Below, one piece after another: positions 6,113-29,760 of a stretch of DNA of 64,000 nucleotides. The first letter of the stretch is position 1. Every line of letters starts with the position of its first letter. The notes below the pieces were generated by a model, which was not told the origin of the DNA, did no database searches, and was given only the letters and a program-made list of their open reading frames with translations. Position numbers and translations under genes: made by a program. Origin of the DNA: a phage; sequence record PX418922.1; one strand, 5' to 3'.

Positions 6113-6119
6113 TTATGCA

Positions 6120-6488: not shown

Positions 6489-6490
6489 GA

Positions 6491-6866: not shown

Positions 6867-6923
6867 TTGACGTTCGCCAGGTGGCGGCATAATATTTACC
6901 ACGTAGCGCGGCAATGGTGCCGC
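6867..6923 (+). promoter_or_regulatory. early promoter unit 1 with 5' hairpin
   Basis: TTGACG-N17-TAATAT; TTACCACGTAG start region; hairpin GCGGCA-ATGG-TGCCGC 6908-6923. Confidence 0.6.
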
Positions 6924-6944
6924 TCACTATTTGGAGTTAAGATC

Positions 6945-7142
6945 ATGGCAACATTGCACATTGTGGCGAAAGCTGGACAAATCAACGTAATAGTAAACGG
7001 TTTTACTGAGTTCAGTCATCCCCAGGATGATCATGAAACGGTTTTATCTTTCATTGATTCCCTGTTAGAAATGGGAGTCATTACAGAAGACCAGCACGCT
7101 ACAAAATGCAAGCGCGTTAATCAAATTGCAGGGATAGAATAA
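6945..7142 (+). CDS. hypothetical early protein (65 aa)
   Basis: ATG 6945 after RBS GGAG downstream of unit 1. Confidence 0.5.
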   Translation: MATLHIVAKAGQINVIVNGFTEFSHPQDDHETVLSFIDSLLEMGVITEDQHATKCKRVNQIAGIE

Positions 7143-15250: not shown

Positions 15251-15266
15251 TACACGGTAAAAGAAA

Positions 15267-15290
15267 GGGGCGCACTAAGCGCCCTTTTTT
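15267..15290 (+). terminator. rho-independent terminator
   Basis: GGGGCGCACTAAGCGCCC hairpin followed by TTTTTT. Confidence 0.7.
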
Positions 15291-16094: not shown

Positions 16095-16110
16095 ATAACA
16101 TTTCATACCA

Positions 16111-16136
16111 GGGCGCACAAAGCGCCCTTTCTTTTT
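16111..16136 (+). terminator. rho-independent terminator
   Basis: GGGCGCACAAAGCGCCC hairpin followed by TTTCTTTTT. Confidence 0.7.
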
Positions 16137-16139
16137 GCC

Positions 16140-17150
16140 CGAACAATGTTGATAGATTCCGCCTATGGAAAACCGACACAGAACAAAACTGAATAAATAG
16201 CGGTATCAAGCTAATCAACCATTAAATGAATAACCATACCTCCCAGGGTAACAGGCTGTTAGAGAGCCATTTAAAGCGGTTAAAATCGATCAACAACCAA
16301 CAACAAACCATCAAAAACACCCTTTTACCTCCTTTCTAGTGCAATGATAACCATTATCATCTATCCATGTTTATCTATACAATATAAGTGCATAATTATA
16401 ATGTTGATAATAGTTCGCAACAACTAACCAACAAACAACATAAAACAATAAGCAAACTAATCATAATCAAAGGAATAATAGCAAGATGATTGATAACAAC
16501 AAACAATCAAACCATGATGAATACTAAGCAAGATAACGATAACACGACAAAACAACCAACTAACGAACAATAACAAACGAAACCATTAAAATAATAACTA
16601 TTGCCATAATAGTGACTAAATGAAATCATTACAAAACGAATCATTCACAGAGTCATCATTAGCACGCTATGCCGGACACATAGCGAGCTAATAATAAGCC
16701 AACTACACCCCAACAATCATAACCATCGGTGATGGTTATTTCTTGTTACTGCGTAGCTTGCAATAATTGCAAGCGTAATGACGCTTACACTTATTGCGCT
16801 GGCTTATTATTAGCATTATATGTAATTACCAAGATCATAACATTAGCGCAATAACAATAATCATTGTGGTAATTACGTAAGGAAACAATTAGCATGGCAA
16901 TAATTATGGGGCAATGGGAGGATGATTATCATCATTCCGATACATTGCACACTATGCACATAATAGAATAAAAAGCAATAATTTTGGGGGCGAAATGTTA
17001 CCGCCACAGGCGGGAATGTTGAGCACTAAGAAAAGAGATAAACCTTAATCATGGGGGCGTAAATATCCGCAGGATTGCCAACGGCGATCCGGTAGGATGT
17101 TGAGCATCTTCTCTTAAACGTAAATAAAATCAGAAAATTCTTGATTTATT
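16140..17150. other. A+C-rich, G-poor non-coding tract with palindromes (candidate origin, regulatory region or ncRNA)
   Basis: About 1 kb without credible ORF; runs of CAACAA/AACAAA; palindromes CTTGCAATAATTGCAAG (~16757), GATGATTATCATC (~16920), AGCGT-AATG-ACGCT (~16774). Confidence 0.45.
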
Positions 17151-17174
17151 TTAGTTTTTATGTTAATAAACGTT

Positions 17175-17379
17175 TAAATAATAATCATTCTCATATAAAT
17201 AATAGTCTGCTTGTCATGAGCGGGATTAGTTGACAATGTTCCGTCATATGATGAAGTTGCCAACCTATTGATAAATAAGTGTTTGTGTGATTTATAATCA
17301 AGTGGCCCACCTTGTCGCTACGTTGGCATAAGCCTTGCATAAGTCATTGAATACGAATGATAATTATTCTCATTCGCAT
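17175..17379. promoter_or_regulatory. second cluster of Fur-box-like / TTCTCAT palindromic sites
   Basis: TAAATAATAATCATTCTCAT (17175-17194) is 19/20 identical to 6211-6230; AATGATAATTATTCTCATTCGCAT (17356-17379) matches 6155-6172. Confidence 0.45.
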
Positions 17380-17493
17380 GATATTTGGGAATTGTCGCTG
17401 CGTGGACCTGACGGCCCGAAAATTCGCGTTAAGCACTTCTTACGTATGCGCCATGATTTTTGCCATATGATATTGATTCTATTAGATATTCTT

Positions 17494-17678
17494 GCCATGA
17501 TTGCCATGAAACAGGGTGTCCCGAAATAATCTTTCCCCGTAGATATTTTGGGTTACTTTTTATACAAGAGTGGGGTGTCAAAAATAATCGGTATATATGG
17601 GATAATTGATAGGAATCCCCTATGATAATTCGATTGTAATTCCCTGAGATTGATCGTATGATGTTGGTGATTGATGAT
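17494..17678. repeat. direct repeats ATGATTGCCATGAAA (two copies ~170 bp apart) and GGTGTC..AAATAATC
   Basis: Copies at ~17494-17508 and ~17664-17678; GGTGTCCCGAAATAATC (~17515) vs GGTGTCAAAAATAATC (~17573). Confidence 0.35.
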
Positions 17679-17715
17679 TGCCATGAAAGATGGCTAACGA
17701 TGAGAGGAGATTATC

Positions 17716-18090
17716 ATGCAAGAGAGTAAAAATATTCCGTTGAGCAGTGCAGCATTGCTTCGCTTCTATAAAGCATGGATTGCCAACTATCCTGCAATGA
17801 ATCGCACAACGAGTGGCTTATGTGGTTGTCTGGTGGATTATGTAGATGATTTTGTTGGTGAGACAACTAGAGAAGAAGATAGAAGATGGCGGGATAGTTT
17901 GTTGGACCGTTTGAAATATGAAATGAGGAGACAATTTACATGTGCAGGGCTGGACTATAATCTTCCGTTCAATGCAGATTGCATGGATTACCTTTCAGAG
18001 TGTATAAACTTGGCGTGTCATACCAACACGTTACGTCTTCAGTGGGTGAAAGACAGAATTGAAGATGCAAATAATGTTTGCATTGAATAA
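17716..18090 (+). CDS. GLCxCL-family small protein (124 aa), paralogue set member 1
   Basis: RBS GAGGAG; motifs FYKAW..YP, GLCGCL, C-terminal LRLQWVKDR shared with 22323, 28117, 29422 ORFs. Confidence 0.6.
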   Translation: MQESKNIPLSSAALLRFYKAWIANYPAMNRTTSGLCGCLVDYVDDFVGETTREEDRRWRDSLLDRLKYEMRRQFTCAGLDYNLPFNADCMDYLSECINLACHTNTLRLQWVKDRIEDANNVCIE

Positions 18091-18149
18091 AAATGTCTGT
18101 ATAGTGGTTTGCATACCGCGCATAACAGATAGCCAATGAGGAGATTGAA

Positions 18150-18359
18150 ATGTCAAATATGAAAACTGTATCCTTGTATTTAGCTAACACTGATCGTGTG
18201 CACACCCTTGCTAACGCAAGTCGTGTACTCGTGCAGTTCCGAAACTTTAAGCCGTCCGTTGTGACAGGCAGTGAAACGTGTGTTATCGATTTCATTAACG
18301 AATACTTCCGAGGGAATCCGGTTGGTCGTTACTTTATTAAGGGTTTGAAGGATGCATAG
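18150..18359 (+). CDS. hypothetical protein (69 aa)
   Basis: RBS GAGGAG before ATG. Confidence 0.55.
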   Translation: MSNMKTVSLYLANTDRVHTLANASRVLVQFRNFKPSVVTGSETCVIDFINEYFRGNPVGRYFIKGLKDA

Positions 18360-18360
18360 T

Positions 18361-18582
18361 ATGAAACGCATGAAAATTCGTATTGAGAATGATGGTGGTT
18401 ATAAAGGATTGGCACATGCAAAATTTCCACTTGTGTTGGAAGCTACGGTGGAATACAGTGGGCTTGCTCATGTGCGATTCTCGAAGATGATGGAAGTGCA
18501 GGAATGGTTTTGGGACGAGATAGATGCACGAGAAGGAGAAGATTATGTTTTCTTTCCTCACGAATATAACATTGTTTATTAA
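18361..18582 (+). CDS. hypothetical protein (73 aa), paralogue of 23033-23254
   Basis: Shared block EWFWDE..EGEDYVFF with 23033 ORF; alternative ATG at 18352. Confidence 0.5.
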   Translation: MKRMKIRIENDGGYKGLAHAKFPLVLEATVEYSGLAHVRFSKMMEVQEWFWDEIDAREGEDYVFFPHEYNIVY

Positions 18583-18594
18583 AGGTTGTGTGCA

Positions 18595-18834
18595 ATGATC
18601 ACACCACAACAGAATGAAGCAGCAATGGATCTTCTTGATAGTTTGTATTTCGATAATTGGTACTCTGAATGTGAATGGATGAATATGCAAACTCTGAAAG
18701 AGAAGACAAAAGCGTTGATTACAGTAGATCAATTTCTTGCAGAGACGGAAAGAATGAATTATGATATGGCATCTCGCGCACGACGCGTTTCCATTTTCAA
18801 TAAAATGTTAGCATTATGGGGAGGTAGAAAATGA
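18595..18834 (+). CDS. hypothetical protein (79 aa)
   Basis: ATG 18595 after AAAGG; in-frame GTG at 18586 possible. Confidence 0.5.
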   Translation: MITPQQNEAAMDLLDSLYFDNWYSECEWMNMQTLKEKTKALITVDQFLAETERMNYDMASRARRVSIFNKMLALWGGRK

Positions 18835-19292
18835 GACAACCATCTATACTGGAAGCGCATGTGCAATGTGTTGTAGATTATGTCAAAGAACACTCAAGTT
18901 TGTTGAATGTAACCTGTGCAGTGCAAAATGATGTAGGTATTGTCTGTGTGCAACATATCTTATCTGAAACTCGTTATGAAGTATTTCGTGCCACGTTGTT
19001 TGGATGTGATCGAGTGCATGTAAACTTCCTGGACTCCAATTATCGTTATGCTTTAGAAAATATTGATGATTATCTTCCTTGCTCTCCGACAGGATATGTA
19101 ATGGTAACAGCAAACGAAGTAACACCGAGCAACAGTGAACAGGAAGCTTTGTTACGGAAGAAAATACGCCAACTGCAAGTGTTGAATGAACTGAAAGAAG
19201 AGATTGAAAAAGAACTGAAAGAAGATTTTGGTATGCTTCCAAAAGACGCTTTGAAATGGTATGATGAGTTAGGAGGAGAGAACAATGTTTAA
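18831..19292 (+). CDS. hypothetical protein (153 aa)
   Basis: RBS GGAGG; ATGA overlap with upstream ORF. Confidence 0.55.
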   Translation: MRQPSILEAHVQCVVDYVKEHSSLLNVTCAVQNDVGIVCVQHILSETRYEVFRATLFGCDRVHVNFLDSNYRYALENIDDYLPCSPTGYVMVTANEVTPSNSEQEALLRKKIRQLQVLNELKEEIEKELKEDFGMLPKDALKWYDELGGENNV

Positions 19293-19743
19293 AGAAGGTC
19301 ATGTCTACCGTTTCCAGGATGAGGATTATATGCGATTATATTCTACCTTTGATAACAGTATTGCTGCTATCATTGGAGAGAATTTTTTCGAGGTGTTGAG
19401 CACTGATGCAAATGGTAATATCTTGTCAATGGTTGTAATAGGTATGAGAGACGGTATTATCACTGCTGGTGATGGGGATCGTTACATAATCAATTCTGCT
19501 CATATAGATTATTTTGTTGACGGTGGTGTTCGTGGTGGTCGTGGAAAACCCCAAGAAGAACCTGTTGATACAACAAAAGAAGAGTGGTATGTTGTAATGA
19601 CTGATGACACCTGTATTTCTGGATTTGAAAGTTATGAAGAAGCTTTGAAAGAAGCAGCAGAGCATAAAATGGCTAATCCTACAGAAGAGGTTGAAGTTTA
19701 TAAACGTTTGGTTGTTGCTACCATCGGCGTATCTTTTGTTTAA
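19285..19743 (+). CDS. hypothetical protein (152 aa)
   Basis: RBS AGGAGGAG; overlaps upstream stop. Confidence 0.55.
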   Translation: MFKEGHVYRFQDEDYMRLYSTFDNSIAAIIGENFFEVLSTDANGNILSMVVIGMRDGIITAGDGDRYIINSAHIDYFVDGGVRGGRGKPQEEPVDTTKEEWYVVMTDDTCISGFESYEEALKEAAEHKMANPTEEVEVYKRLVVATIGVSFV

Positions 19744-19755
19744 AAGGGGAATGTT

Positions 19756-20193
19756 ATGTTTAAAGTTAATGCTGTTTACTGTTTCAAAAGTAAAGCTGCC
19801 TGTGAAGCTTTCTCTATGATCTCTGATGAAAATTTCAAAATGGCAGCTTTGATTGAAGGGTCTTGTTTCCGCGTCGAGGATGTTAGTGAATCAGGGTCTG
19901 TTTGCTCATTGACTTTATTGGACAGCGGGGATATTATTGAAGCTGGACAGTATCCGTTCAGGAGTTGGGAGATATTGTTAGCTCGCGGAGAGCGTAACTT
20001 TTTTATGTGCGTGTCTGCGGGGGAAGTTGTGAAAGAAACTAAGGATGTTTCTGTTTACAATTCTGAATTTATAAGTTATAGTGAGTATCAACATCTGGAA
20101 GGCATTGTTGGTCACTTGTTATCTCTGATTGACATTGAATGTGACCTGCCTGAATCATTGAAAGAAGAGTTGAAAGCATTAGATCTGCTGTAA
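19756..20193 (+). CDS. hypothetical protein (145 aa)
   Basis: RBS AAAGGGG before ATG. Confidence 0.55.
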   Translation: MFKVNAVYCFKSKAACEAFSMISDENFKMAALIEGSCFRVEDVSESGSVCSLTLLDSGDIIEAGQYPFRSWEILLARGERNFFMCVSAGEVVKETKDVSVYNSEFISYSEYQHLEGIVGHLLSLIDIECDLPESLKEELKALDLL

Positions 20194-20296
20194 TGTTTCG
20201 CACAACGGAGACTAAGCATGTCGATTGTTTACCTGGCTGTTTGGTTCCGCTGTGATTTGTTTGTCCTGTCGGGGCATTTTTAGGAGTCTGGAAGTA

Positions 20297-21277
20297 ATGG
20301 CTAAAACTAAAAGTTGGGAAGAACATTTAAAAGATTGTTTAGAGGTTGTAAAACCAGGTGTTAAGATACTAGGATGGTCAGGAGAATGGAAAGGAGCACA
20401 TACCCGTTTGCGGTGCGTGTGTTCTGTTCACGGGGAATGGACTTCCACCACAATACATAAGTTTAAAATGGGGAGAAGTTGTCCAGGTTGTAGGACAGAT
20501 GCTTCAGCCCATGCTAGACACAACGGAGATAAGTTTTGGTTGGATTTGTTGTATAATTTTTGTCAAGAACGAGATTTCTTTTTTGAAGTGCCTCAACCTC
20601 CTATCTACGGTAGGTCTGAAATCAAGATCTGCTGCCCGAAACACGGTACATTTAGAAGTACACTAAGTAATATACAAAAACAAAGATCATGTCCCATGTG
20701 TAAAGTAGATGCAGCCAGAGAGAATAATCTTTTACCTGACCAATATCACGTGGAGAAGTACATGGCGACAGGTTCTTTTCCACAGGGCAGTTTATTTCGT
20801 AGAATAGGTAAAACAAGAAGTTCGAAAGGTTCAGCACAAACATGGGAGTGCTACTGTCCCACATGCAATGAAACACATCTTGCACGTGATAGCAATCTGG
20901 CTCAAGGTAAGCGACCATGTTCTTGTTCAGGGAATAATCAGAAGCAAGCGTACATTAATGTGGTATTTGACAACAACACTCCTATAGCTTTAAAGTTTGG
21001 AATAGCAAGAAACAGTGCACAAAGATTAGCCGCACAAAATAAAAAGAATTTTTTGAAGATGGATTGCTTGGCGGTATATTCTTTCAGAACAGTCAGAGAA
21101 TGTAAAGCTGCGGAACGCGCTTGTAAGAGGATGCTGGTCTGTAGTACAGTAGGTAAGAAAGAAATGGTTGACGGGTATACTGAAACAACATATATTTCTA
21201 ATTACGATACAATTGTGGATATCTATAAGAAGTTTGGAGGTGTGAAGTTGCAAATGATAAAGAAGAGTACCGAGTGA
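20297..21277 (+). CDS. Cys-rich protein, paralogue of 3609-4595
   Basis: RBS AGGAG before ATG 20297; N-terminus MAKTKSWEEHLKDC parallels MAAPKSWEQYKEEC; shared ILGWSGEWKG, KQAYIN..ALKFGIA, DGYTET. Confidence 0.55.
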   Translation: MAKTKSWEEHLKDCLEVVKPGVKILGWSGEWKGAHTRLRCVCSVHGEWTSTTIHKFKMGRSCPGCRTDASAHARHNGDKFWLDLLYNFCQERDFFFEVPQPPIYGRSEIKICCPKHGTFRSTLSNIQKQRSCPMCKVDAARENNLLPDQYHVEKYMATGSFPQGSLFRRIGKTRSSKGSAQTWECYCPTCNETHLARDSNLAQGKRPCSCSGNNQKQAYINVVFDNNTPIALKFGIARNSAQRLAAQNKKNFLKMDCLAVYSFRTVRECKAAERACKRMLVCSTVGKKEMVDGYTETTYISNYDTIVDIYKKFGGVKLQMIKKSTE

Positions 21278-21374
21278 GGCGTACACATATCTATTAAATT
21301 TGGATTGTTTATAAAGAAATGGATCTAAACGGAGCATATGAGTGGATCACTATTGATTGGTCGGAGGTGAAATA

Positions 21375-21584
21375 ATGGTTACTATCACGTTGACAGTTAC
21401 ACAAGAGCAAGCAGAAGAATTACGTGATGCACTGGCATATATGGGACGCGCTTATTATATGCCTCACAAATCTCAAGATGTTTTTGCTACAGCCGTTGAG
21501 AAAGCTTTAAACAAATACCGAGAAACTCATGCCGTTCCTAAAGTATCAGCAGAAGAGTTTGGCACTTGGCACGAAGTTCACTGA
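21375..21584 (+). CDS. hypothetical protein (69 aa)
   Basis: RBS GGAGGTG before ATG 21375. Confidence 0.5.
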   Translation: MVTITLTVTQEQAEELRDALAYMGRAYYMPHKSQDVFATAVEKALNKYRETHAVPKVSAEEFGTWHEVH

Positions 21585-21595
21585 GGAGGTTTCGA

Positions 21596-21849
21596 TGAAA
21601 GGTAACAAGATGAAAGTTAATCAAGTGCCGAGCGCATACACTTTGTGGCTTGCGCGAGCGTTACACCAGACGATCAAAGACCCTAAGAAGCCAATGAAGA
21701 GTGGGAAGAAGTTTATGTCTAAGGGCAAAACAACCTTTGGCTTCACTCGTATGTCTGTTAAGATGAAAAGGCTGGGGGGTACAAGCCAAACTACGCTCGT
21801 TACCCTTCTGAATACAACTGGTTTGATTAAAGAGGAGAACAAAACATGA
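21596..21849 (+). CDS. small basic protein (84 aa)
   Basis: RBS GAGGAGG before ATG 21596; Lys-rich, possible nucleic-acid binding. Confidence 0.5.
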
Positions 21850-22130
21850 AAACATCTATTCGCGTAAAACATGATCCAAACAGCAGTTACCCATATGTGT
21901 ATGTTGAACGTCATGAAGGGGACTATTACACCATAAAACGTAAAGTCCCAACTGATACAGGGTTTAACTTTGATGTTATTGCACTGGATGATCAAGGTGT
22001 TGATAATCTGGTAAATGCATTACTCGCATTGAAGGAAGTACGACATGAAAATCAGACTAAAGGTAAAGTGGCTTTCGATTCTTGTGATCGTTTAGCCGAA
22101 GAGATTGCCGAATGGCGTGATACTCACTAA
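21846..22130 (+). CDS. hypothetical protein (94 aa)
   Basis: RBS AGAGGAG; ATGA overlap. Confidence 0.55.
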   Translation: MKTSIRVKHDPNSSYPYVYVERHEGDYYTIKRKVPTDTGFNFDVIALDDQGVDNLVNALLALKEVRHENQTKGKVAFDSCDRLAEEIAEWRDTH

Positions 22131-22145
22131 AACAGGAGAAAGATT

Positions 22146-22322
22146 ATGGCTACTTTTCAACAACTGAAAGATGTTTCACGTTTAGTAAGAAAAATCCGAG
22201 AAGCAGACGCTGCTGTGCGGAATGCATTAACGCCAGCAGAGCGTGAAGATCTTGAAGAGGAGGTGAAAACAGCCGAGAATGCTTTTGCTGCGTATCTTTC
22301 AACACTGTATACAGGAGGTTAA
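22146..22322 (+). CDS. hypothetical small protein (58 aa)
   Basis: RBS ACAGGAG before ATG 22146; fills gap between neighbours. Confidence 0.45.
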   Translation: MATFQQLKDVSRLVRKIREADAAVRNALTPAEREDLEEEVKTAENAFAAYLSTLYTGG

Positions 22323-22637
22323 ATGTCAGAAGAACTTAAAGAATTTTATCAAGCATATCATAACTGGCTGTTAGCTGGTGCTCCAGATAATAATCCTTTC
22401 TGGCATGATAAAGGATTATGTAGTTGCCTCTACCTTTGGACTGGAGGTTATGATGATCTAAATTATGAAATGCAAATGCAATTCCGTGAGGCAGGATTGT
22501 CTGAAGAATACCCGTTTGATGACGGAGACTGGTTTAAATATGATTTTGCACAAAGAAACGGGCTATTGCATTTGAATGCTGCCCGTATAAAATGGGTAAA
22601 AGACCATGCTACACAGGAGGATGTGCAATGCCAATAG
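22323..22637 (+). CDS. GLCxCL-family small protein (104 aa), member 2
   Basis: RBS AGGAGG; FYQAYHNWLLAGAP, GLCSCL, ARIKWVKDH motifs. Confidence 0.6.
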   Translation: MSEELKEFYQAYHNWLLAGAPDNNPFWHDKGLCSCLYLWTGGYDDLNYEMQMQFREAGLSEEYPFDDGDWFKYDFAQRNGLLHLNAARIKWVKDHATQEDVQCQ

Positions 22638-22828
22638 TGTTTAGTTTCTTAGTAATTGTTATGGTTGTTCTTTTCGCGGCATGGCTTTGGGATTTTGACC
22701 CAGGAGCAGCGCAGCAAAGAGCTACAGACTGGAAAGAACAATGTATTGTGCTCAAACATGAACGAAATGCGGAGAAATTTCTTGACCTAGAGTGTGATCG
22801 CCTTGTAAGATACAAGCAAGATAAATAA
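22628..22828 (+). CDS. small membrane protein (66 aa)
   Basis: RBS GGAGG before ATG 22628; hydrophobic PIVFSFLVIVMVVLFAAWLW. Confidence 0.45.
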   Translation: MPIVFSFLVIVMVVLFAAWLWDFDPGAAQQRATDWKEQCIVLKHERNAEKFLDLECDRLVRYKQDK

Positions 22829-22842
22829 CCTTGAGGTGCAAA

Positions 22843-23031
22843 ATGGTAATTGAGATTAAACTTGAATATGCTGGGGCTGTTGCTCTGATCGCACAAATGC
22901 TTGGAGCAAAGATTGAAGAAGTGTATATCAATGCCTGGAGCGTAGAGATTGATGTTCCTATGGACAACATTGCTAATCGCTTGCTGGTGGCAGAGTGTGA
23001 ACGCACCAACATAATCTACAAAGGAGCATAA
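22843..23031 (+). CDS. hypothetical protein (62 aa)
   Basis: RBS GAGGTG before ATG 22843. Confidence 0.5.
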   Translation: MVIEIKLEYAGAVALIAQMLGAKIEEVYINAWSVEIDVPMDNIANRLLVAECERTNIIYKGA

Positions 23032-23032
23032 T

Positions 23033-23254
23033 ATGAAAATTAGAGTTTGTGATGTATTGGGTTATGTTGGTTTTGAGAATGTTCAGATTCCTTTTGTTGT
23101 TGAAGCACATCTTGTTAGCGACGATATGACAACATTCTTTGTTACGATAGAAGAAATGTCCAAAGTTGAGGGATGGGAGTGGTTTGAAGAAGATGTTTGG
23201 GAAGGTTGTGATTACGTATTTTTCTCTGACGAAGTGAATGTTCTTGCGGAGTAG
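23033..23254 (+). CDS. hypothetical protein (73 aa), paralogue of 18361-18582
   Basis: RBS AAGGAG; shared WEWFEED.WEGCDYVFF block. Confidence 0.5.
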   Translation: MKIRVCDVLGYVGFENVQIPFVVEAHLVSDDMTTFFVTIEEMSKVEGWEWFEEDVWEGCDYVFFSDEVNVLAE

Positions 23255-23256
23255 GT

Positions 23257-23463
23257 ATGTCTTGTTTTACAAAAGCAGTGTCCATATGTAAGAAACAGTA
23301 TGAAAGTGATTACGGAATATTTAATATTCCAGCAGATCATACAAAGTATTGTTCATGTGGTGGCAGAATGAAGAAAACAGTGATTTATGCGGATAGTGGA
23401 GACGAACTTGTTCCGGTTATGGTTTGCAAAGCTTGTCATTCTGTTAAAACATTAAAAGCGTAA
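23257..23463 (+). CDS. Cys-containing small protein (68 aa)
   Basis: RBS GGAG; Cys pairs CSCGG and CKACH suggest a zinc-binding fold. Confidence 0.5.
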   Translation: MSCFTKAVSICKKQYESDYGIFNIPADHTKYCSCGGRMKKTVIYADSGDELVPVMVCKACHSVKTLKA

Positions 23464-23558
23464 GGAGTCGGGACACCCGACGATTGGAGCTAAAAATTTT
23501 GCGTACAACCCTTTCCGCCCAACAGGGGCGCGTCGGGTAAATAAAGAGGAGAGTTTAT

Positions 23559-23957
23559 ATGAAAAAGATCATCGTAGGTTTATTGTTACTCATTGCATCA
23601 CTCGGAACAGCAAATGCGTCTCAAGTTTATGAGTGTGTGTCAGATGTGGTTGTTAAAAATCTGAAAGGTGAAGTGATTTCTGGTCCTAAGAAAATGGCTT
23701 CTGTTGTCATTAATAAAGATAACTCCTTTATCCTTAAAAATTCAGGTGGTGCTTTGATGAGTGGCATTCTGCAATACACAGGAGAAAAAAGTAAAGATGG
23801 TAGTGCTATGTATGGTTCACAACAGTTTATTGGCACTACTGAAGTTGTGATGATGCGCACAGAGTATCGAGACACTTTAGCTTGGTTTGCATTTCTAAAA
23901 AATGATAAAACAATAACAAATGTTCTTACTCTAGAAGCCGATTGTACGCAACGATAA
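23559..23957 (+). CDS. secreted protein (132 aa)
   Basis: RBS GAGGAG; signal peptide MKKIIVGLLLLIASLGTANA. Confidence 0.55.
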   Translation: MKKIIVGLLLLIASLGTANASQVYECVSDVVVKNLKGEVISGPKKMASVVINKDNSFILKNSGGALMSGILQYTGEKSKDGSAMYGSQQFIGTTEVVMMRTEYRDTLAWFAFLKNDKTITNVLTLEADCTQR

Positions 23958-23967
23958 GGGGGTATTT

Positions 23968-24423
23968 ATGACTAAAGTGCGACATTACGCTGTAAACTGC
24001 AACGATGCTTGGCGTTTGTGTCCTGATGATCCGACAGAAGGCACATTTGTAAGATATGAGGATTATAAAGAATTATCGGATGCTGTAATCGCATTGTTAA
24101 CTGATATCCGTTCACGTTATCCAGGACAAGATTTCACTTGCCCTCACATCAAACTTCTTGCTTGCCTGGTAGAAGGTGAGAAAGAAGTGGAAGATGGCTT
24201 CAAGCGTGTAGAGTATCAAGGTGAAACTTTAGATGTTCCTGAATTTGTTAATTATATTGCAACAGATTCGAGTGGCGAGCGTTATGGTTACACTCATAAA
24301 CCGGAGATTCCAGATTTCGCTTATGCGTGGCGTATTCCTTATGAAGTTTTTAATGTTGCAGATTGCTGGTATTTAGGAGAAGGAAACAACCTTAATTGGC
24401 GTGATTCCTTGGTTCAGGTTTAA
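23968..24423 (+). CDS. hypothetical protein (151 aa)
   Basis: RBS AAGGGGG before ATG. Confidence 0.55.
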   Translation: MTKVRHYAVNCNDAWRLCPDDPTEGTFVRYEDYKELSDAVIALLTDIRSRYPGQDFTCPHIKLLACLVEGEKEVEDGFKRVEYQGETLDVPEFVNYIATDSSGERYGYTHKPEIPDFAYAWRIPYEVFNVADCWYLGEGNNLNWRDSLVQV

Positions 24424-24427
24424 CAAT

Positions 24428-24691
24428 ATGAAAGAGACATTGCCAGCAGCATACCGTTTGAATGATGAACGTATTTGGGAGTGGACCGACGTTTCTTGTT
24501 TTTACCCTGAAATAGTTCAATATTGGCGAGCAAAAGGGTGTGTTGTAGTTATCAACCCATGTGGACCAGTGGATGAAGATTGCTTGTATCTCGATGGAAA
24601 GTGGCACAGTTATTGTCGCTGGCCTTTTGAGTGGATGTGTAAAGAAGATCTCCCAGAGGGTTGGGAGTATCCAAAAGCAAATAGGAGATAA
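24428..24691 (+). CDS. hypothetical Cys/Trp-rich protein (87 aa)
   Basis: ATG 24428 just after upstream stop; alternative GTG at 24401. Confidence 0.45.
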   Translation: MKETLPAAYRLNDERIWEWTDVSCFYPEIVQYWRAKGCVVVINPCGPVDEDCLYLDGKWHSYCRWPFEWMCKEDLPEGWEYPKANRR

Positions 24692-24692
24692 T

Positions 24693-25055
24693 ATGTCTAA
24701 AGATTTTGTTGAAATGTTTGTCAAAGATGAAGAAACTGGTTTAGGCACAGGTTTCATTTGTGAAGAAACCTTTAAACGTGAACAAGAAAAAGCTATTCTT
24801 ATGCGAAACTATGATCACGCATTAGAACAATGGAAAAATGCAGAACAAAAATGCAAAAACCTTTATGCAGAAAATAGAAAACTACAAGATCAAATGGAGT
24901 TGTTAGCTATCAGTTTACGATCTCTCATTTTGGCTGTAGAAGATGGTTTTAAAAATCCAGATGGTTTTCCTGTGAGCGATATTGAACATGATTTGTATCT
25001 TGCTCGTGGTGCTTACTTCTATGTTAAACAGAAGTCTGTAGAAGGAGAGAAGTGA
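24693..25055 (+). CDS. hypothetical protein (120 aa)
   Basis: RBS AGGAG before ATG 24693. Confidence 0.5.
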   Translation: MSKDFVEMFVKDEETGLGTGFICEETFKREQEKAILMRNYDHALEQWKNAEQKCKNLYAENRKLQDQMELLAISLRSLILAVEDGFKNPDGFPVSDIEHDLYLARGAYFYVKQKSVEGEK

Positions 25056-25252
25056 TGGAAGAAAAACTGGAACGTATTATCGAGTTAGCCATGTCTATTG
25101 GCTACGACGATTGTTTTCTCCAAACTATTGGAGAAATAGAGAACGATTACGACTCTTGGGTGAAAGAGTTGGAAGAACTTAAAACTTCCTTGATTGCTGA
25201 CTTTGCTGAAGCAGAGGATAAAGCAGATCGTTACAACTATCTGTGTCGATAA
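25052..25252 (+). CDS. hypothetical protein (66 aa)
   Basis: RBS AAGGAGAG; ATGA overlap. Confidence 0.5.
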   Translation: MMEEKLERIIELAMSIGYDDCFLQTIGEIENDYDSWVKELEELKTSLIADFAEAEDKADRYNYLCR

Positions 25253-25255
25253 AGC

Positions 25256-25283
25256 TTGACACACGCTTCCTGTATGGTATGCT
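25256..25283 (+). promoter_or_regulatory. sigma70-like promoter
   Basis: TTGACA 25256-25261, 16-nt spacer, TATGCT; TTACCACATCAAG start region resembles array units but no GC hairpin. Confidence 0.45.
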
Positions 25284-25312
25284 TACCACATCAAGACAAT
25301 AAGGAGAGAAAA

Positions 25313-25657
25313 ATGACTAAACTTTTGTGCGTATCATCTTCCGTTCCATATTTCACTGTTGGTAAGCAATACCCTGTGACAAATACGGACGAGGATGTAG
25401 ATTACTACTGGATCAATAGTGATGACGGAACAGATTGTGTTATTGAGTTGAGAATGCGCTGCGCCACTTTTGAGGTGGTAACTGAAAACGTGATGCGTCT
25501 TTTCGAGATCCGATATACAAAAGATAACGGCAGTATTAAAACTTATCAGATCCCAGCCCTTTCTATCTACGACGCATGTGTACGTTTGGGTCAGATTTAC
25601 GGGGACGATAAATACTACCGTGACGATGTGTCCATTCATGTGGTAGAGGTGGTGTAA
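25313..25657 (+). CDS. hypothetical protein (114 aa)
   Basis: RBS AAGGAGAG before ATG 25313. Confidence 0.55.
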   Translation: MTKLLCVSSSVPYFTVGKQYPVTNTDEDVDYYWINSDDGTDCVIELRMRCATFEVVTENVMRLFEIRYTKDNGSIKTYQIPALSIYDACVRLGQIYGDDKYYRDDVSIHVVEVV

Positions 25658-25658
25658 T

Positions 25659-25931
25659 ATGAATAAAGATCGGTTTCTTTCTTTAGTCGCGGAAGCTCCT
25701 TTTGATGTTCTTGGGGTGAGATTATGGAAAGACAGAAACTATGGGTTAGATGTTCAAACATACTCTCTTTGGTTGGTTGGGGAGCACAGCTTAGATGAAA
25801 GCTTGTGCATGGGTAGGGATTCTCGTTCCCTCTGTTTAAAGTTCAGAAGCTTAGAACGCGCAAACAAAGAGCAAGAAAAACTAACGAGGTGGCTAAATGA
25901 AAACAAGCGCAAGGTTGATGGAGTTTTATAA
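25659..25931 (+). CDS. hypothetical protein (90 aa)
   Basis: RBS GAGGTGG before ATG. Confidence 0.55.
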   Translation: MNKDRFLSLVAEAPFDVLGVRLWKDRNYGLDVQTYSLWLVGEHSLDESLCMGRDSRSLCLKFRSLERANKEQEKLTRWLNENKRKVDGVL

Positions 25932-26101
25932 AATTTATCTAGCATGGATTGATGTTGGTGCTCCTGATGGTAAACCTTTTCGGCGGGATTGACTTTGGGT
26001 CATTGTTTGGCAAACATTGAAGATGTTGTGATCCAAAGGGTTGTTTTAGAGAAAGAGGCTATTTGAGAGAAGACGGCACAATACTTAAATATAAAGATTA
26101 A
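25918..26101 (+). pseudogene. decayed GLCxCL-family gene remnant
   Basis: MEFYKIYLAWIDVGAPDGKPFRRD* matches family N-terminus; downstream frame-shifted ILKYKD* matches C-terminal (I/L)KWVKD; ~184 nt vs ~320-375 nt for intact members. Confidence 0.45.
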
Positions 26102-26118
26102 CCACAAAGGAGATAGAT

Positions 26119-26418
26119 ATGCAAGTTGAAGACCTGATTAAAATTTTGAATGAAGCTAAAGAGAAAGGTGCTATCAAGGACTGGAAACGTGAAACAAGTG
26201 AAGACCTATCTCATTGTTGCCGAGAGTTTTACATCGAAGGTATTGCTGACGATCATTATACTATCGAATGGTATATCAACTTAATGACCCTTAAGCACGG
26301 TTCATTTGAGATTTGGTTTGATGACATTGATGTAAATGGTTTTCATCCTGGCTATAAAATCGCTATGCAGTTATCTTATCGTAGAGAAGTTGTAGCACAT
26401 TTGGGTTTACATAACTAA
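26119..26418 (+). CDS. hypothetical protein (99 aa)
   Basis: RBS AAGGAG before ATG. Confidence 0.55.
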   Translation: MQVEDLIKILNEAKEKGAIKDWKRETSEDLSHCCREFYIEGIADDHYTIEWYINLMTLKHGSFEIWFDDIDVNGFHPGYKIAMQLSYRREVVAHLGLHN

Positions 26419-26428
26419 GGAGAAAAGA

Positions 26429-26752
26429 ATGCAAGCAGTTGTTAACGAAGCTATTATGAACTTATCCTTCTTGTTAGCTGGTTTAGGAGGTGTTCTCATA
26501 GGTTTGGCTCTTATCTGGTGTATTCGTCGATTAATCGGGTACCGACAAAAAGGTGTTTCATGTTTTGTATCTTACAATTTTACAACTGCTTACAGCAATG
26601 AAGTTGGATCTGGTAATGCTCAAGCATTTTTACCAACATATCCTCCTACGGTGGAAGATATTCGAAACTTGGAAGTACAACTTATGGGACTAGGTGATAA
26701 CTATACATCTCTAGTTATTCAAAATATTTTTCGACTAAAACAGGGGGCGTGA
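26429..26752 (+). CDS. membrane protein (107 aa)
   Basis: RBS AAGGAG; N-terminal TM segment LSFLLAGLGGVLIGLALIWCI. Confidence 0.55.
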   Translation: MQAVVNEAIMNLSFLLAGLGGVLIGLALIWCIRRLIGYRQKGVSCFVSYNFTTAYSNEVGSGNAQAFLPTYPPTVEDIRNLEVQLMGLGDNYTSLVIQNIFRLKQGA

Positions 26753-26965
26753 ATGAAGGTACATTACCCTCATCCATTTGATCCTAAAAACAAAGCCGTA
26801 ATTCTTCGTCAGTGGCAACGGGTTTGTCGTACTAAATGTCCAATCAATAGCCCACACAATGTAGACAAGGACTATCTTGGGACATTTGTTGAATACACTT
26901 ACATAGACAAAAACAAGCGTAAACAGCATGTCGAGGAATACTGCTTAAGAGTAGAATGGCTGTAA
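26753..26965 (+). CDS. hypothetical protein (70 aa)
   Basis: RBS GGGGG; ATG overlaps upstream stop. Confidence 0.5.
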   Translation: MKVHYPHPFDPKNKAVILRQWQRVCRTKCPINSPHNVDKDYLGTFVEYTYIDKNKRKQHVEEYCLRVEWL

Positions 26966-26977
26966 ATAATAAATACC

Positions 26978-27006
26978 TTGACAAGTGTTTATTCGTTTTG
27001 TAAAGT
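26978..27006 (+). promoter_or_regulatory. sigma70-like promoter for recombinase gene
   Basis: TTGACA 26978-26983, 17-nt spacer, TAAAGT 27001-27006. Confidence 0.5.
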
Positions 27007-27035
27007 GAGAATACAGCAATGGTTTAGGAGTGGTT

Positions 27036-27707
27036 ATGAAAAAGTTTGTTGTTTACAGTCGTCTTTCTAAACAGAAAAAAGGTGAGGCACAATATGGTAT
27101 GGAGAGCCAAGAGAATGATATCCGTTACTTCTTAGACTCTGTGCCTGATGCGGAAGTTATTGGTCAATTTTCTGAATACTATTCGGGTAAGGGCGATTGG
27201 AAGCAACGTAAGGAACTGGTTAAAGCGGTTGAAATGTGTAAAGCTACCGGAGCAACTTTATTGGTAGCTAAAGTTGACCGCTTGGGTCGTAACAACGCCT
27301 CCGTAGCAACTCTTCTAGAAATGATCGATGTTAAGATAGCCATTATGCCAGACGCAGATAAAATGGTTATACAGCTTCTGTCTGTTCTGGCTGAACAAGA
27401 AGTTAGAGGTATTGCTGATCGTATTAAAAAGGGTCTTGCTGTAGCAAAAAGCAAAGGTGTTTTATTAGGCAGTGCTAATCCTAAAACTGCCGCTGCACGT
27501 AGAAAAGGAAAAATGGAATACAACTCTGTTAAAGCAGACGCTTTTGCAGAGACATTCCGTGAACGCTTGGAGATCCTTAGAGATTTAAATACACCTTACA
27601 AAACTATTGCTGAAAAATTCAATAGTAAGAAAATAGCAACAGCACGTGGTGGTAAATGGGATGCTAAAACTGTTTCTCGTTTGTGTGCCAGACTGAACAT
27701 TAAATAG
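27036..27707 (+). CDS. serine recombinase (resolvase/invertase family)
   Basis: N-terminal VYSRLSKQ (catalytic Ser context), LLVAKVDRLGRN motif, C-terminal basic HTH-like region; RBS AGGAG. Confidence 0.65.
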   Translation: MKKFVVYSRLSKQKKGEAQYGMESQENDIRYFLDSVPDAEVIGQFSEYYSGKGDWKQRKELVKAVEMCKATGATLLVAKVDRLGRNNASVATLLEMIDVKIAIMPDADKMVIQLLSVLAEQEVRGIADRIKKGLAVAKSKGVLLGSANPKTAAARRKGKMEYNSVKADAFAETFRERLEILRDLNTPYKTIAEKFNSKKIATARGGKWDAKTVSRLCARLNIK

Positions 27708-27715
27708 GAGAGGAT

Positions 27716-28138
27716 ATGAAACAAGAAAATGAATCTGTAGATCACTTAATCATGCTGTCAGCCCTTTTTGCCGGATGGGACGTATTTTTTGAAAATTTGT
27801 TCAATTCTGCTACAGATGGTTCCGATTTTATGCGCCAGTTTAAACGACGAACTGTTGAGGACTATGCTTTCTATTCAGGTCGGATTGAAAAAGGTTACGA
27901 AGATACAAATACAACACTCACCATTAAAGTTTTAGATGTGATGTTTAGTGTTATAGATGCTATCGACGAAAGTCTTCCGATCCTAGACAATTGTAATACG
28001 AAAGCCTATGTTTACAAAATAGCTCGTGCTTATGTGTCTGCAAACAGTTGTCTTCTTTCCACCCAGATTGCCGTGAACAATCTTGCCAACTTGTTTGATG
28101 AAGGAGAAACTTTTTATGACAATCGATTTGAAGTGTAA
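27716..28138 (+). CDS. hypothetical protein (140 aa)
   Basis: RBS AGGAGAGG before ATG. Confidence 0.55.
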   Translation: MKQENESVDHLIMLSALFAGWDVFFENLFNSATDGSDFMRQFKRRTVEDYAFYSGRIEKGYEDTNTTLTIKVLDVMFSVIDAIDESLPILDNCNTKAYVYKIARAYVSANSCLLSTQIAVNNLANLFDEGETFYDNRFEV

Positions 28139-28481
28139 GAGGATTCTTTTAGATTTCTATAATAATTGGTTAGAACACCTCCGGCTCTTTCCAAGAGAAA
28201 GTGGTTACGCTGATGTTGGCTTATGCCGAGGTCTACGTATGTATATAAGTGGTGAATTTCGGGCCGAGCATTCTTTAGCATATTCTGTTTATGGTATGCA
28301 ATTAGCCAGTTTTGAAAACGCTGGCTTAGATACAACTTTCCCATTTAACACAGCAAAATCTTTTGAGCAAGAGTGTAAGGAAAAACGTTGCATGTTTAAT
28401 GAAAAACGTGTACAGTGGGTTAAGGATCGAGTTAAACAACTGGAACAAGAGTTGGATTTCTTCTATGATGAGGCAGAATAA
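28117..28481 (+). CDS. GLCxCL-family small protein (121 aa), member 3
   Basis: RBS GGAGAAA; FYNNWLEHL, GLCRGL, KRVQWVKDR motifs. Confidence 0.55.
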
Positions 28482-28753
28482 TGGATAGACAAACCTTAAA
28501 AACAATGGCAGATGCCACTAATTCCCCGTACTTTGAAAAAGTAAGTAAATTGGTAGCTAAAGCCGCAGAGGAAGGATATTATAACATAAACATCCATAAC
28601 CCAAGTCTTATACTAGAAATGCCAAGTGATAAGAAGATACAAGAGAGTATCTGTGAAGGTATTGTTAGTTACTGGCGCGAGCGTGGGTGTGGTGCAAACA
28701 TGGCTTTAGACAGTGCAAACATTGTAAGATATATAAATATTTCTTGGGGGTGA
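28481..28753 (+). CDS. hypothetical protein (90 aa)
   Basis: Start overlaps upstream stop (TAATG). Confidence 0.5.
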   Translation: MDRQTLKTMADATNSPYFEKVSKLVAKAAEEGYYNINIHNPSLILEMPSDKKIQESICEGIVSYWRERGCGANMALDSANIVRYINISWG

Positions 28754-28794
28754 TTTTATGATTCAATGCACTCATATCCAAATTACTTGGAGAG

Positions 28795-29370
28795 ATGAAC
28801 TTTACCATTTTGGGACAATTTACTGTAGGGGAAACATACCCTGTCATTAAACATAATCCTAACATCGCAAACTTTGATAGGATGGTTCTTGTTGAGGACG
28901 ATCTGGGTCAAACTTATTCTTTAGATCTAAAATATCCGTTTTCTTACGGCTACGATTGGATCGTTACTTTTGAAGACGTGGAGGAAAATAAAACAATGAA
29001 CGAAAAAAATTCTTGGTATTATCGTTGTGAACTGCCGCCAGTAGGTGAAAAGGTTATCTTTGTTCCTGATTTGGAAAGATATTCTTGGGACAGTTCTTAT
29101 TCTATTCCTAAAGAAGGCACCGAAGTTGAAGTTATTGCACATCGCACAACTTCGCATGGTAACGATGTAGCAGTTGTTTTCTGGGATGATGAAGGTGCTG
29201 CTTGTGCAGGTGGCTTTGTTGCAGGTAATTTTGAACCCCTGCCAGATCCTTTGAAGGAGGCAATTTTAGGCGTAGCTTCTTTTGGACTCTCTTACACATC
29301 TGCACAAGAGATCGTAGAAGGTATTTTAAACGGTACCGTTCCAAACGAAATTTTTAAACAGATTAAATAA
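28795..29370 (+). CDS. hypothetical protein (191 aa)
   Basis: RBS GGAGAG before ATG. Confidence 0.55.
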   Translation: MNFTILGQFTVGETYPVIKHNPNIANFDRMVLVEDDLGQTYSLDLKYPFSYGYDWIVTFEDVEENKTMNEKNSWYYRCELPPVGEKVIFVPDLERYSWDSSYSIPKEGTEVEVIAHRTTSHGNDVAVVFWDDEGAACAGGFVAGNFEPLPDPLKEAILGVASFGLSYTSAQEIVEGILNGTVPNEIFKQIK

Positions 29371-29375
29371 TAGTT

Positions 29376-29400
29376 GCACCCCGTTCTGCGGGGTGTTATT
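29376..29400 (+). terminator. rho-independent terminator
   Basis: GCACCCCG-TTCT-GCGGGGTG hairpin then TTATT. Confidence 0.6.
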
Positions 29401-29421
29401 GTATATGTAAAGGAGGCGCTA

Positions 29422-29760
29422 ATGTATTACACTGAAGACTACATATTGTATAACTTTTTTAAAGGTTGGTTGAAATGGGCGGAACAAGCTCCTGTCGGAG
29501 ATTGTGTTTTTCCTTGGGATTCTCGTCAAGGCTTGTGTCGTTGTTTGGAAGATTGGCTTATAACCACAAACTACAATTCAGAAACTAAGAAATCTACATC
29601 AAACAGATTAAAAATGTTGTTTGAAGAAGATGGTTTAGATCCAATTTATCCTTTCGGTGAGGAAAGTTTCCACAATGGTCTTTTCCTTGGCACTCAACAT
29701 TATGATAAAGATCGTGTAGATTGGGTAAAAGAAAAGGTAGCACAGTATGAATGGGGTTAA
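29422..29760 (+). CDS. GLCxCL-family small protein (112 aa), member 4
   Basis: RBS AAGGAGG before ATG 29422; FFKGWLKWAEQAP, GLCRCL, DRVDWVKEK motifs. Confidence 0.6.
   Translation: MYYTEDYILYNFFKGWLKWAEQAPVGDCVFPWDSRQGLCRCLEDWLITTNYNSETKKSTSNRLKMLFEEDGLDPIYPFGEESFHNGLFLGTQHYDKDRVDWVKEKVAQYEWG

What the first reader, a model, noticed from the sequence alone, without database searches (positions are those of the whole stretch)
17716..29760. Paralogous family of four small proteins with a GLCxCL motif and C-terminal RxxWVKD(R/K) motif
ORFs 17716-18090, 22323-22637, 28117-28481 and 29422-29760 (104-124 aa) share an N-terminal (F/Y)-x-x-(A/W)-(W/L) block, a central GLC(G/S/R)(C/G)L and a C-terminal (L/I)xWVKD(R/H/K). 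Four diverged copies dispersed over 12 kb of the early/accessory region indicate repeated duplication. I do not recognise the motif combination; candidate roles are host-takeover or anti-defence, with the paired cysteines possibly binding metal.
Basis: seen in the sequence. Interest (0 to 1): 0.6.

Follow-up and report, generated by a model that had tools for sequence, protein, structure and literature searches.

The report
Phage N4 gp3-like small protein family
Four small genes in this E. coli phage are real, diverged copies of a widespread phage-only protein family that includes gene 3 of phage N4. No function is known for the family; it looks like a dispensable accessory protein made before the late genes, not a paired-cysteine metal binder.

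Summary
The window is a phAPEC8-like Phapecoctavirus. All four match PHROG 2510 ("unknown function") at E 1e-24 to 1e-29.

Invariant residues are one Cys, Pro-Phe and one Arg.

Copy number changes among near-identical phages (4, 5 and 7). The window also holds a 31-codon remnant of a fifth copy (25897-25992), and copy A carries the 5' end of a tandem paralog. The four copies are deep lineages, not recent duplicates.

Published knockdown of the three PTXU04 homologs gave no fitness defect. The best reading is a dispensable accessory host-interaction or counter-defence protein; its function remains unproven.

The parts
17716..18090 (+). Copy A, 124 aa. First gene after a 1.58 kb ORF-free stretch. 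It has the longest variable insert after the GLC helix.
   Evidence: ORF. GAGGAG Shine-Dalgarno. PHROG 2510 E 1.1e-24. Its SD and first ~11 codons match phAPEC8 gp245 and the rest matches gp244, so it looks like a recombinant of two tandem paralogs. Orthologs in relatives are mostly 80-97% identical, none at 99% or above.
22323..22637 (+). Copy B, 104 aa. The minimal form of the domain, with the shortest variable loop.
   Evidence: ORF. AGGAGG SD. PHROG 2510 E 8e-29. AlphaFold pLDDT 86.8, pTM 0.79, all-helical. At least 99% identical in 58 related phages.
28116..28481 (+). Copy C, 121 aa. It lacks the second Cys (GLCRGL) and the semi-conserved His (CMFN).
   Evidence: ORF opens at 28083, with ATG at 28116 behind an AAGGAG SD. 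The CDS is 366 nt in relatives. PHROG 2510 E 3.2e-26.
29422..29760 (+). Copy D, 112 aa. The most divergent copy (23% identical to A).
   Evidence: ATG behind an AAGGAGG SD. PHROG 2510 E 6.1e-27. AlphaFold pLDDT 95.2, pTM 0.87, with the same order of helices as B.
25897..25992 (+). Truncated fifth copy: 31 codons (MKTSARLMEFYKIYLAWIDVGAPDGKPFRRD) followed by a stop, cut just before the GLC motif.
   Evidence: Identical to the first 31 residues of phAPEC8 gp222. The window has about 115 nt where phAPEC8 has 1.6 kb and vB_Ec-G1 has 1.07 kb.
18352..18582 (+). PHROG 15322 gene downstream of copy A. Not a family member; it is evidence of an old segmental duplication.
   Evidence: 38% identical to 23033-23254, E 8e-12. 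PHROG 15322 E 9e-42.
23033..23254 (+). PHROG 15322 gene downstream of copy B, the partner of 18352-18582.
29376..29396 (+). G+C-rich, terminator-like hairpin just upstream of copy D.
   Evidence: 9-bp stem with 6 GC pairs and a T-rich tail. It lies inside the spurious TTG-initiated extension of ORF D.

Best explanation
Shown: the four ORFs are translated-looking paralogs of one phage-specific family (PHROG 2510; members include N4 gp3, phiEco32 gp52 and PTXU04 gp85-87). The domain is about 100 aa, usually acidic, with no signal peptide or membrane segment seen in the window copies, and it folds as five helices. Its signature has an invariant Cys in the first turn of helix 2, a fixed-length E-M-x2-Q-F-x2-A-G-L-x3-Y-P-F loop, and H-x-N-x2-R-x2-W-V opening the last helix. 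The stretch after the Cys helix varies from 15 to 34 residues. Copies are gained and lost by recombination between close relatives.

Inferred: these are accessory proteins made before the late genes. They are not needed for growth on a laboratory host. Each most likely acts stoichiometrically on a host component, either a defence protein or a conserved proteobacterial factor. The conserved Cys/Arg-containing core would supply a common binding site, and the variable loop and tails would give each paralog its own specificity. Natural two- and three-domain fusions, and the three-gene tandem array in PTXU04, suggest the domains may work as dimers or higher oligomers, possibly mixed ones.

Confidence is about 0.95 that this is a real PHROG 2510 / N4 gp3-like family. 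The figure given below (0.4) is for the accessory host-interaction / counter-defence mechanism.
For: Homology
- PHROG 2510 at E 1e-24 to 1e-29 for all four copies.
- 5 of 6 pairs significant in the window-wide BLASTP.
- 1,420 clusters at 50% identity with E up to 1e-3, and 420 with E up to 1e-10.
- N4 gp3 scores 71 bits and Erwinia phage Frozen gp8 scores 92 bits; phiEco32 gp52 and PTXU04 gp85-87 also match.

Phage-only, Proteobacteria hosts
- 311 phage records and 846 places.
- One 'plasmid' hit, which looks like a phage-plasmid.

Expression before the late genes
- The gene lies 1.2-3.6 kb from the left end in N4-like genomes.
- N4 early promoters are confined to that end, and gp1, gp2, gp15 and gp16 are early products (PMC4496689).
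- The phiEco32 member sits next to the DNA polymerase gene, in the cluster described as middle (PMC8948821).

Accessory behaviour
- 4 copies here, 5 in vB_Ec-G1 and 7 in phAPEC8, at 95-98% DNA identity.
- A truncated fifth copy, and a hybrid 5' end on copy A.
- Frameshifted copies in relatives.

Dispensable
- PTXU04_00085, 86 and 87 are all 'Not Fit' in genome-wide CRISPRi-ART, and stayed 'unknown' after HHpred (PMC11879866, supplementary files 8 and 16).

Fold and composition
- pLDDT 86.8 and 95.2 for two copies.
- Median pI 5.2 in relatives; pI 4.5-5.5 in the window copies.

Oligomer hint
- 17 of the top 150 relatives carry 2-3 domains, and every repeat examined keeps C, PF and R.

Variable loop
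- 15-34 residues, against fixed 9-residue spacers elsewhere.
Against: No target, partner or phenotype is known for any member.

The set of conserved polar residues is more typical of a catalytic or ligand-binding site than of a pure protein binder in an arms race: Cys and Arg invariant, Gln at least 90%, Glu, His and Asn at least 70%.

The PTXU04 result could reflect redundancy among the three tandem copies rather than an accessory role.

The phiEco32 member lies among replication genes rather than early genes.

No expression-timing data exist for phAPEC8-like phages.

I could not inspect model coordinates, so it is not shown that the conserved residues cluster in space.
Confidence: 0.4

Rival explanations
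1. A small enzyme or ligand-binding protein with a new fold. The invariant Cys sits in the first turn of a helix, which usually lowers a thiol's pKa. Together with the invariant Arg in the first turn of the last helix, and the conserved Gln, Glu, His and Asn, it would form a site that reacts with or binds a small molecule, a metal or a host protein side chain. Paralogs would differ in substrate.
For: Cys, Arg and Pro-Phe are invariant in 125 of 125 relatives at 50% identity or less, with no Ala, Ser or Lys substitutions. Q53 is at least 90% conserved, and E49, E76, H83 and N85 at least 70%. Spacers around these residues have fixed lengths. Every repeat of the multi-domain proteins examined keeps C, PF and R. 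The Cys lies at the helix start in both models: helix 32-40 in B with C33, and helix 38-47 in D with C39.
Against: No fold or sequence link to any known enzyme. A 100-aa all-helical enzyme would be unusual. Window copy C lacks the His, and one DUF551 fusion has Lys in place of the Cys. Several of the conserved polar residues may only be helix caps, for example N-P-x-R. It is not shown that the residues are close in space.
Confidence: 0.25
2. One reading: a metal-binding protein that uses the paired cysteines of GLCxCL.
For: A, B and D have C-x-C. A His is conserved in 74% of relatives.
Against: The second Cys is present in only 15% of 125 relatives, where Asn is the norm at 62%. It is Gly in copy C, which also has Met at the His position. 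Only one Cys is invariant, which is too few ligands for a structural zinc site within one chain. No zinc-finger or ZAS model matched.
Confidence: 0.03
3. A regulator of the phage's own programme that binds DNA or RNA through a helix-turn-helix-like bundle.
Confidence: 0.07
4. Selfish or near-neutral cargo. The copies would spread and decay by recombination, as mobile ORFs do, without benefit to the phage.
For: Dispersed copies, presence/absence differences between near-identical phages, a truncated remnant and frameshifted copies. No knockdown phenotype.
Against: Strong purifying conservation of about 20 positions across 1,420 clusters and across phages of alpha-, beta- and gamma-proteobacteria. 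No nuclease or recombinase motif that could drive mobility. Copy B is at least 99% identical in 58 relatives.
Confidence: 0.05

Closest known systems
PHROG 2510 (unknown function), including Escherichia phage N4 gp3 (YP_950481)
   Same: All four window proteins match the PHROG profile over their full length. N4 gp3 matches the family profile at 71 bits with the same GLC, PF and R-x2-W motifs. Size is similar, and the gene sits in the early region of N4-like genomes.
   Different: N4-like and T1-like phages mostly carry one copy, while this phage lineage carries 4-9. Identity to N4 gp3 is only about 27-49% over partial alignments. I found no function reported for gp3.
PTXU04_00085, 00086 and 00087 (three tandem genes of Escherichia phage PTXU04)
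   Same: Same family, at 85-104 bits. Multiple paralogs in one genome, within a block of small unknown genes.
   Different: They are adjacent, overlapping genes rather than dispersed ones. They are the only members found here with experimental data: knockdown was 'Not Fit', that is, no measurable contribution on the laboratory host.
Characterised small phage counter-defence or takeover proteins made early in infection (T7 Ocr, T4 Acb2, N4 gp8). This is a comparison of how the family may work, not of membership.
   Same: Small, cytoplasmic, usually acidic, encoded in flexible gene blocks expressed before the late genes, and dispensable on permissive hosts. Their properties are taken from general knowledge; only the context of the present family was tested here.
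   Different: No sequence or fold similarity to any solved structure. Net charge of -3 to -10 is far from DNA-mimic levels. The invariant Cys/Arg core has no counterpart in those proteins.
Thiol proteins with a reactive Cys at a helix N-terminus plus a conserved Arg (peroxiredoxins, ArsC, Cys-phosphatases, AhpD-like CxxC proteins). This is an analogy for the enzyme rival.
   Same: An invariant Cys in the first helical turn, and an invariant Arg.

Membership tests
PHROG 2510 / N4 gp3-like family | Significant full-length match to the family profile | tested here: met
   E 1.1e-24, 8e-29, 3.2e-26 and 6.1e-27 for A, B, C and D. A profile built from relatives also recovers all four copies at E 1e-24 to 1e-33.
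PHROG 2510 / N4 gp3-like family | Signature residues: F-Y, W, G-L-C, E-M-x2-Q-F-x2-A-G-L-x3-Y-P-F, (H-x-N)-x2-R-x2-W-V | tested here: met
   C, P-F and R are invariant in 125 relatives and present in all four copies. Copy C lacks the His, and D has Leu for Gln and Asp for Ala.
PHROG 2510 / N4 gp3-like family | About 100-aa all-helical domain with the same order of helices | tested here: met
   Models of B (pLDDT 86.8) and D (pLDDT 95.2) both give five main helices in the same order. BFVD structural hits are family members, with TM-scores of 0.74-0.87 normalised to the query.
Zinc-binding or paired-cysteine proteins (zinc ribbons, ZAS anti-sigma H-x3-C-x2-C) | Three or four conserved Cys/His ligands | tested here: not met
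   One invariant Cys only. The second position is Asn in 62% and Cys in 15% of relatives. His is 74% conserved and absent in copy C. No Pfam zinc-finger match.
AhpD / carboxymuconolactone decarboxylase-like all-helical thiol proteins | CxxC motif and fold similarity | tested here: not met
Winged-helix / HTH DNA-binding regulators | Clear fold match and a basic DNA-binding surface | tested here: not met
DNA-mimic anti-restriction proteins (Ocr, ArdA) | Fold or sequence match and an extreme negative surface charge | tested here: not met
   No PDB sequence or fold match. Net charge is -3 to -10 per 104-124 aa.
Cyclic-nucleotide sponges (Acb2, Tad1, Tad2) | Fold similarity to solved sponge structures | tested here: not met
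Homing endonucleases (a usual cause of dispersed paralogs in phage genomes) | HNH, GIY-YIG, LAGLIDADG or PD-(D/E)xK nuclease domain | tested here: not met
   No nuclease domain matched in Pfam or NCBIfam; the only hits were weak, sub-threshold and unrelated. The domain is about 100 aa and all-helical.
Known bacterial defence-system proteins (PADLOC) | Match to a PADLOC model | tested here: not met
   No hit at E up to 1 for any of the four copies.

The most novel reading that the evidence does not exclude
The domain is a previously unrecognised fold that carries a reactive cysteine. It would be a small phage enzyme or covalent/ligand trap that modifies or sequesters a component conserved across Proteobacteria, for example an immune signal, a cofactor or a host protein side chain. 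Genomes with 4-9 paralogs would hold a panel of specificities. That would make N4 gp3 and over a thousand 'hypothetical' phage protein clusters one new class of host-manipulation factor.
Probability: 0.2. Interest if true: 0.75.

Novelty: new member of a known kind. Interest (0 to 1): 0.4.

Why it matters
The family is one of the larger phage protein families that are still wholly uncharacterised. It has at least 1,400 clusters at 50% identity and no Pfam model, solved structure or known function. It is present in model phages (N4, phiEco32, phi92, PTXU04) and in therapeutic-type E. coli phages.

It has a sharp, testable signature: an invariant Cys, Arg and Pro-Phe. It also has a simple single-copy test case in N4 gp3. 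Finding its target would annotate thousands of genes at once and could reveal a new counter-defence or takeover mechanism.

As it stands, this window adds no new member. The same genes are already deposited in more than 100 phage genomes as 'hypothetical protein'.

Tried and rejected
Searches that found nothing useful
- Pfam, NCBIfam and PADLOC scans of the four proteins gave nothing meaningful.
- A Pfam scan of 125 relatives also gave nothing.
- Pfam on 10 long or multi-domain relatives gave only one informative fusion, to DUF551, itself of unknown function.
- PDB sequence search with 4-sequence and 125-sequence profiles at E up to 10 returned zero hits.
- Foldseek against the PDB found nothing. 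BFVD returned only uncharacterised family members.
- The afdb50 library was not available.
- The word-indexed protein search gave few hits and only 'hypothetical protein' names.
- The plasmid search found a single apparent phage-plasmid, so this is not a plasmid leading-region family.
- Literature searches for PHROG 2510, N4 gp3, its accession and Phapecoctavirus early genes gave no functional information.
- Rfam and tRNA scans of the window were empty.
- A DNA repeat search found no shared flanking element around the four copies. The only DNA-level similarity is inside the R-x2-W-V-K-D coding segment.

Ideas considered and dropped
- A recent in-situ duplication of all four copies: rejected by the tree and identities.
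- A paired-Cys metal site.
- A DNA mimic: the charge is too modest.
- A homing endonuclease: no nuclease domain.
Full report
**What the window is.** The 13 kb around the finding is 95-98% identical to more than 100 deposited E. coli myoviruses of the genus Phapecoctavirus (phAPEC8, vB_Ec-G1, ESCO5 and others). In those records all four ORFs are annotated as 'hypothetical protein'. They lie in a + strand block of small genes running from 17.7 kb to roughly 34 kb, where GC skew changes sign. In phAPEC8, the corresponding − strand block beyond this point holds nucleotide-metabolism and replication genes.

**Checking the observation.**
- The ORFs exist at 17716-18090 (A, 124 aa), 22323-22637 (B, 104 aa) and 29422-29760 (D, 112 aa).
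- C starts at ATG 28116, not 28117.
- Each ATG has a good Shine-Dalgarno sequence.
- The TTG-initiated extension of D runs through a terminator-like hairpin at 29376-29396.
- MAFFT aligns the four copies with 17 invariant columns.
- In an all-against-all BLASTP of 240 window ORFs, five of the six pairs score E 1e-5 to 1e-8. Only two other paralog pairs appear in the whole 64 kb.
- Independently, each copy matches PHROG 2510 ('unknown function') at E 1e-24 to 1e-29.
- A six-frame HMM scan finds no further full copy in the window.

The homology is therefore real and well beyond chance.

**How big the family is.**
- An exhaustive profile search found 1,420 clusters (50% identity) at E up to 1e-3, and 420 at E up to 1e-10.
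- tblastn with the HMM consensus hit 311 phage records at 846 places, with up to 9 per genome. All listed hosts are Proteobacteria, including Escherichia, Klebsiella, Rhizobium, Erwinia, Achromobacter, Pseudomonas, Burkholderia, Ralstonia and Delftia.
- Members include N4 gp3 (71 bits), Erwinia phage Frozen gp8, which is annotated 'N4 gp3-like', phiEco32 gp52 and three adjacent genes of PTXU04. By tblastn, phi92 gp006 also belongs.
- Among 72,556 plasmids only one record matched, and its gene content looks like a phage-plasmid.
- Seventeen of the top 150 relatives contain two or three copies of the domain in one polypeptide. One relative is fused to DUF551 and one carries an N-terminal membrane segment.

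**What the family is not.**
- There is no convincing Pfam, NCBIfam or PADLOC match for the four proteins. The only hits are weak, sub-threshold and unrelated.
- No Pfam family matched among 125 relatives.
- No PDB sequence match appeared, even at E up to 10 with a 125-sequence profile.
- AlphaFold2 gives confident models: B has pLDDT 86.8 and pTM 0.79, and D has pLDDT 95.2 and pTM 0.87. Both show the same five main helices.
- BFVD returns only uncharacterised phage proteins of the same family.
- The PTXU04 authors also recorded 'unknown' for their three homologs after HHpred annotation (PMC11879866, supplementary file 8).

**Anatomy.** In 125 relatives at 50% identity or less, using B numbering:
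- C33, P64, F65 and R88 are invariant.
- L5, F8, Y9, G31, L32, Q53, F54, L59, W91 and V92 are at least 90% conserved.
- E49, M50, A57, G58, Y73, E76, H83 and N85 are at least 70% conserved.
- The invariant Cys is in the first turn of helix 2 and the invariant Arg is in the first turn of the last helix.
- Spacers F54-P64 and Y73-H83 are fixed at 9 residues. The segment from the Cys to E49 varies from 15 residues (B, the minimum) to 34; A has 32.
- Relatives are usually acidic, with a median pI of 5.2. The window copies have pI 4.5-5.5.

A paired-cysteine metal site is therefore not supported.

**Evolution of the copies.**
- The four window copies are 23-33% identical to each other. B is as close to an N4-like homolog (36%) and a phage-plasmid homolog (34%) as to its own paralogs.
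- In a neighbour-joining tree of 161 sequences, the smallest clade holding all four copies is the whole tree. They are deep lineages, not recent duplicates.
- Duplication and loss are nevertheless visible. A and B are each followed, one or two genes downstream, by a PHROG 15322 paralog. These are 18352-18582 and 23033-23254, 38% identical, which points to an old segmental duplication.
- phAPEC8 has 7 copies in its first 50 kb and vB_Ec-G1 has 5, against 4 here.
- The phAPEC8 pairs gp245/gp244 and gp222/gp219 are local duplicates, 45-50% identical and forming small clades.
- Window copy A carries the Shine-Dalgarno sequence and first ~11 codons of gp245 joined to the body of gp244. That is the outcome expected from recombination between tandem paralogs.
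- At 25897-25992 the window keeps the first 31 codons of a gp222-type copy. It is cut just before GLC by a deletion that replaces 1.6 kb of phAPEC8 sequence with about 115 nt.
- Orthologs of A are mostly 80-97% identical among relatives. B is at least 99% identical in 58 of them.

**Timing and dispensability.**
- In N4-like genomes the gene sits 1.2-3.6 kb from the left end, between gp2 and gp15. N4 early promoters are confined to that end, and gp1, gp2, gp15 and gp16 are early products (PMC4496689). An early class for gp3 is my inference from position.
- In phiEco32 the member lies next to the DNA polymerase gene, within the cluster described as middle (PMC8948821).
- The only functional data I found are from genome-wide CRISPRi-ART. 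PTXU04_00085, 86 and 87 are all 'Not Fit', meaning no measurable fitness contribution on the laboratory host (PMC11879866, supplementary file 16). Redundancy among the three copies is a caveat.

**Interpretation.** Shown: this is a genuine, large, phage-restricted family with a new-looking helical fold, an invariant Cys/Arg/Pro-Phe core, a variable loop, gain and loss of copies by recombination, and no requirement on a laboratory host in the one phage tested.

Inferred: the proteins are accessory factors made before the late genes that act on a host component.
- I favour stoichiometric binding, for counter-defence or takeover, with paralogs diversified in the variable loop and possibly working as oligomers. 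The natural 2-3-domain fusions and the PTXU04 three-gene array hint at this. Confidence is about 0.4.
- The main rival is a small thiol-dependent enzyme or ligand-binding protein, at about 0.25. It is supported by the number of conserved polar residues and by the position of the Cys at a helix start.
- A nucleic-acid-binding regulator, a paired-Cys metal binder and neutral selfish cargo are each unlikely.

**Novelty and score.** The genes themselves are already in databases, and the family is catalogued as PHROG 2510. I found no published description of its signature, fold, copy-number dynamics or link to N4 gp3. It is an attractive target for experiment rather than a surprise in itself, so I score interest at 0.4.

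Noticed in passing
window 16130-17715: A 1.58 kb stretch with no ORF of 65 aa or more, immediately upstream of copy A. Part of it (about 16.2-16.7 kb) is A/C-rich low-complexity sequence. It is conserved in relatives, which also annotate no CDS there (phAPEC8 5512-7022). Upstream of it lie two near-identical G+C-rich terminator-like hairpins, at 15262-15290 and 16110-16128. There is no Rfam hit. It could be a regulatory or promoter region, or a genome-end feature.
   Followed up: partly
window 20225-21277 (ATG at 20297) and 3609-4595: Two paralogous endonuclease genes, 31% identical at E 2e-41, matching PHROG 681 and 559 (endonuclease / HNH endonuclease). The 20.2-21.3 kb copy is an insertion: phAPEC8 and vB_Ec-G1 have only about 240 nt at that site. 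It is probably a mobile homing endonuclease.
   Followed up: partly
window 18352-18582 and 23033-23254: A second small paralog pair (PHROG 15322, unknown function, 38% identical). One lies downstream of copy A and the other downstream of copy B. It was found only in Phapecoctavirus loci, not in the N4, Frozen or phage-plasmid loci scanned.
   Followed up: yes
window 19285-19743 and 19756-20193: Adjacent genes that both match PHROG 3710 and share an MFK...VY.F start, so they are probably tandem paralogs. In vB_Ec-G1 the corresponding genes are labelled 'goF mRNA metabolism modulator', a label that the PHROG hits ('unknown function') do not back up.
   Followed up: partly
window 27030-27707: A serine recombinase / DNA invertase gene (labelled 'DNA invertase' or 'resolvase' in relatives), two genes upstream of copy C, inside the small-gene block. 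I did not look for an invertible segment.
   Followed up: no
relatives: Escherichia phage BI-EHEC (P0006) and a metagenomic contig (P0028): Copies of the family whose C-terminal parts diverge from the rest of the alignment, apparently by frameshift. They may be real pseudogenes or sequencing errors.
   Followed up: no
window about 34000: GC skew changes sign at about 34 kb. In the phAPEC8 annotation the corresponding point (about 23.8 kb) is where the + strand small-gene block meets the − strand block that holds replication and nucleotide-metabolism genes.
   Followed up: no
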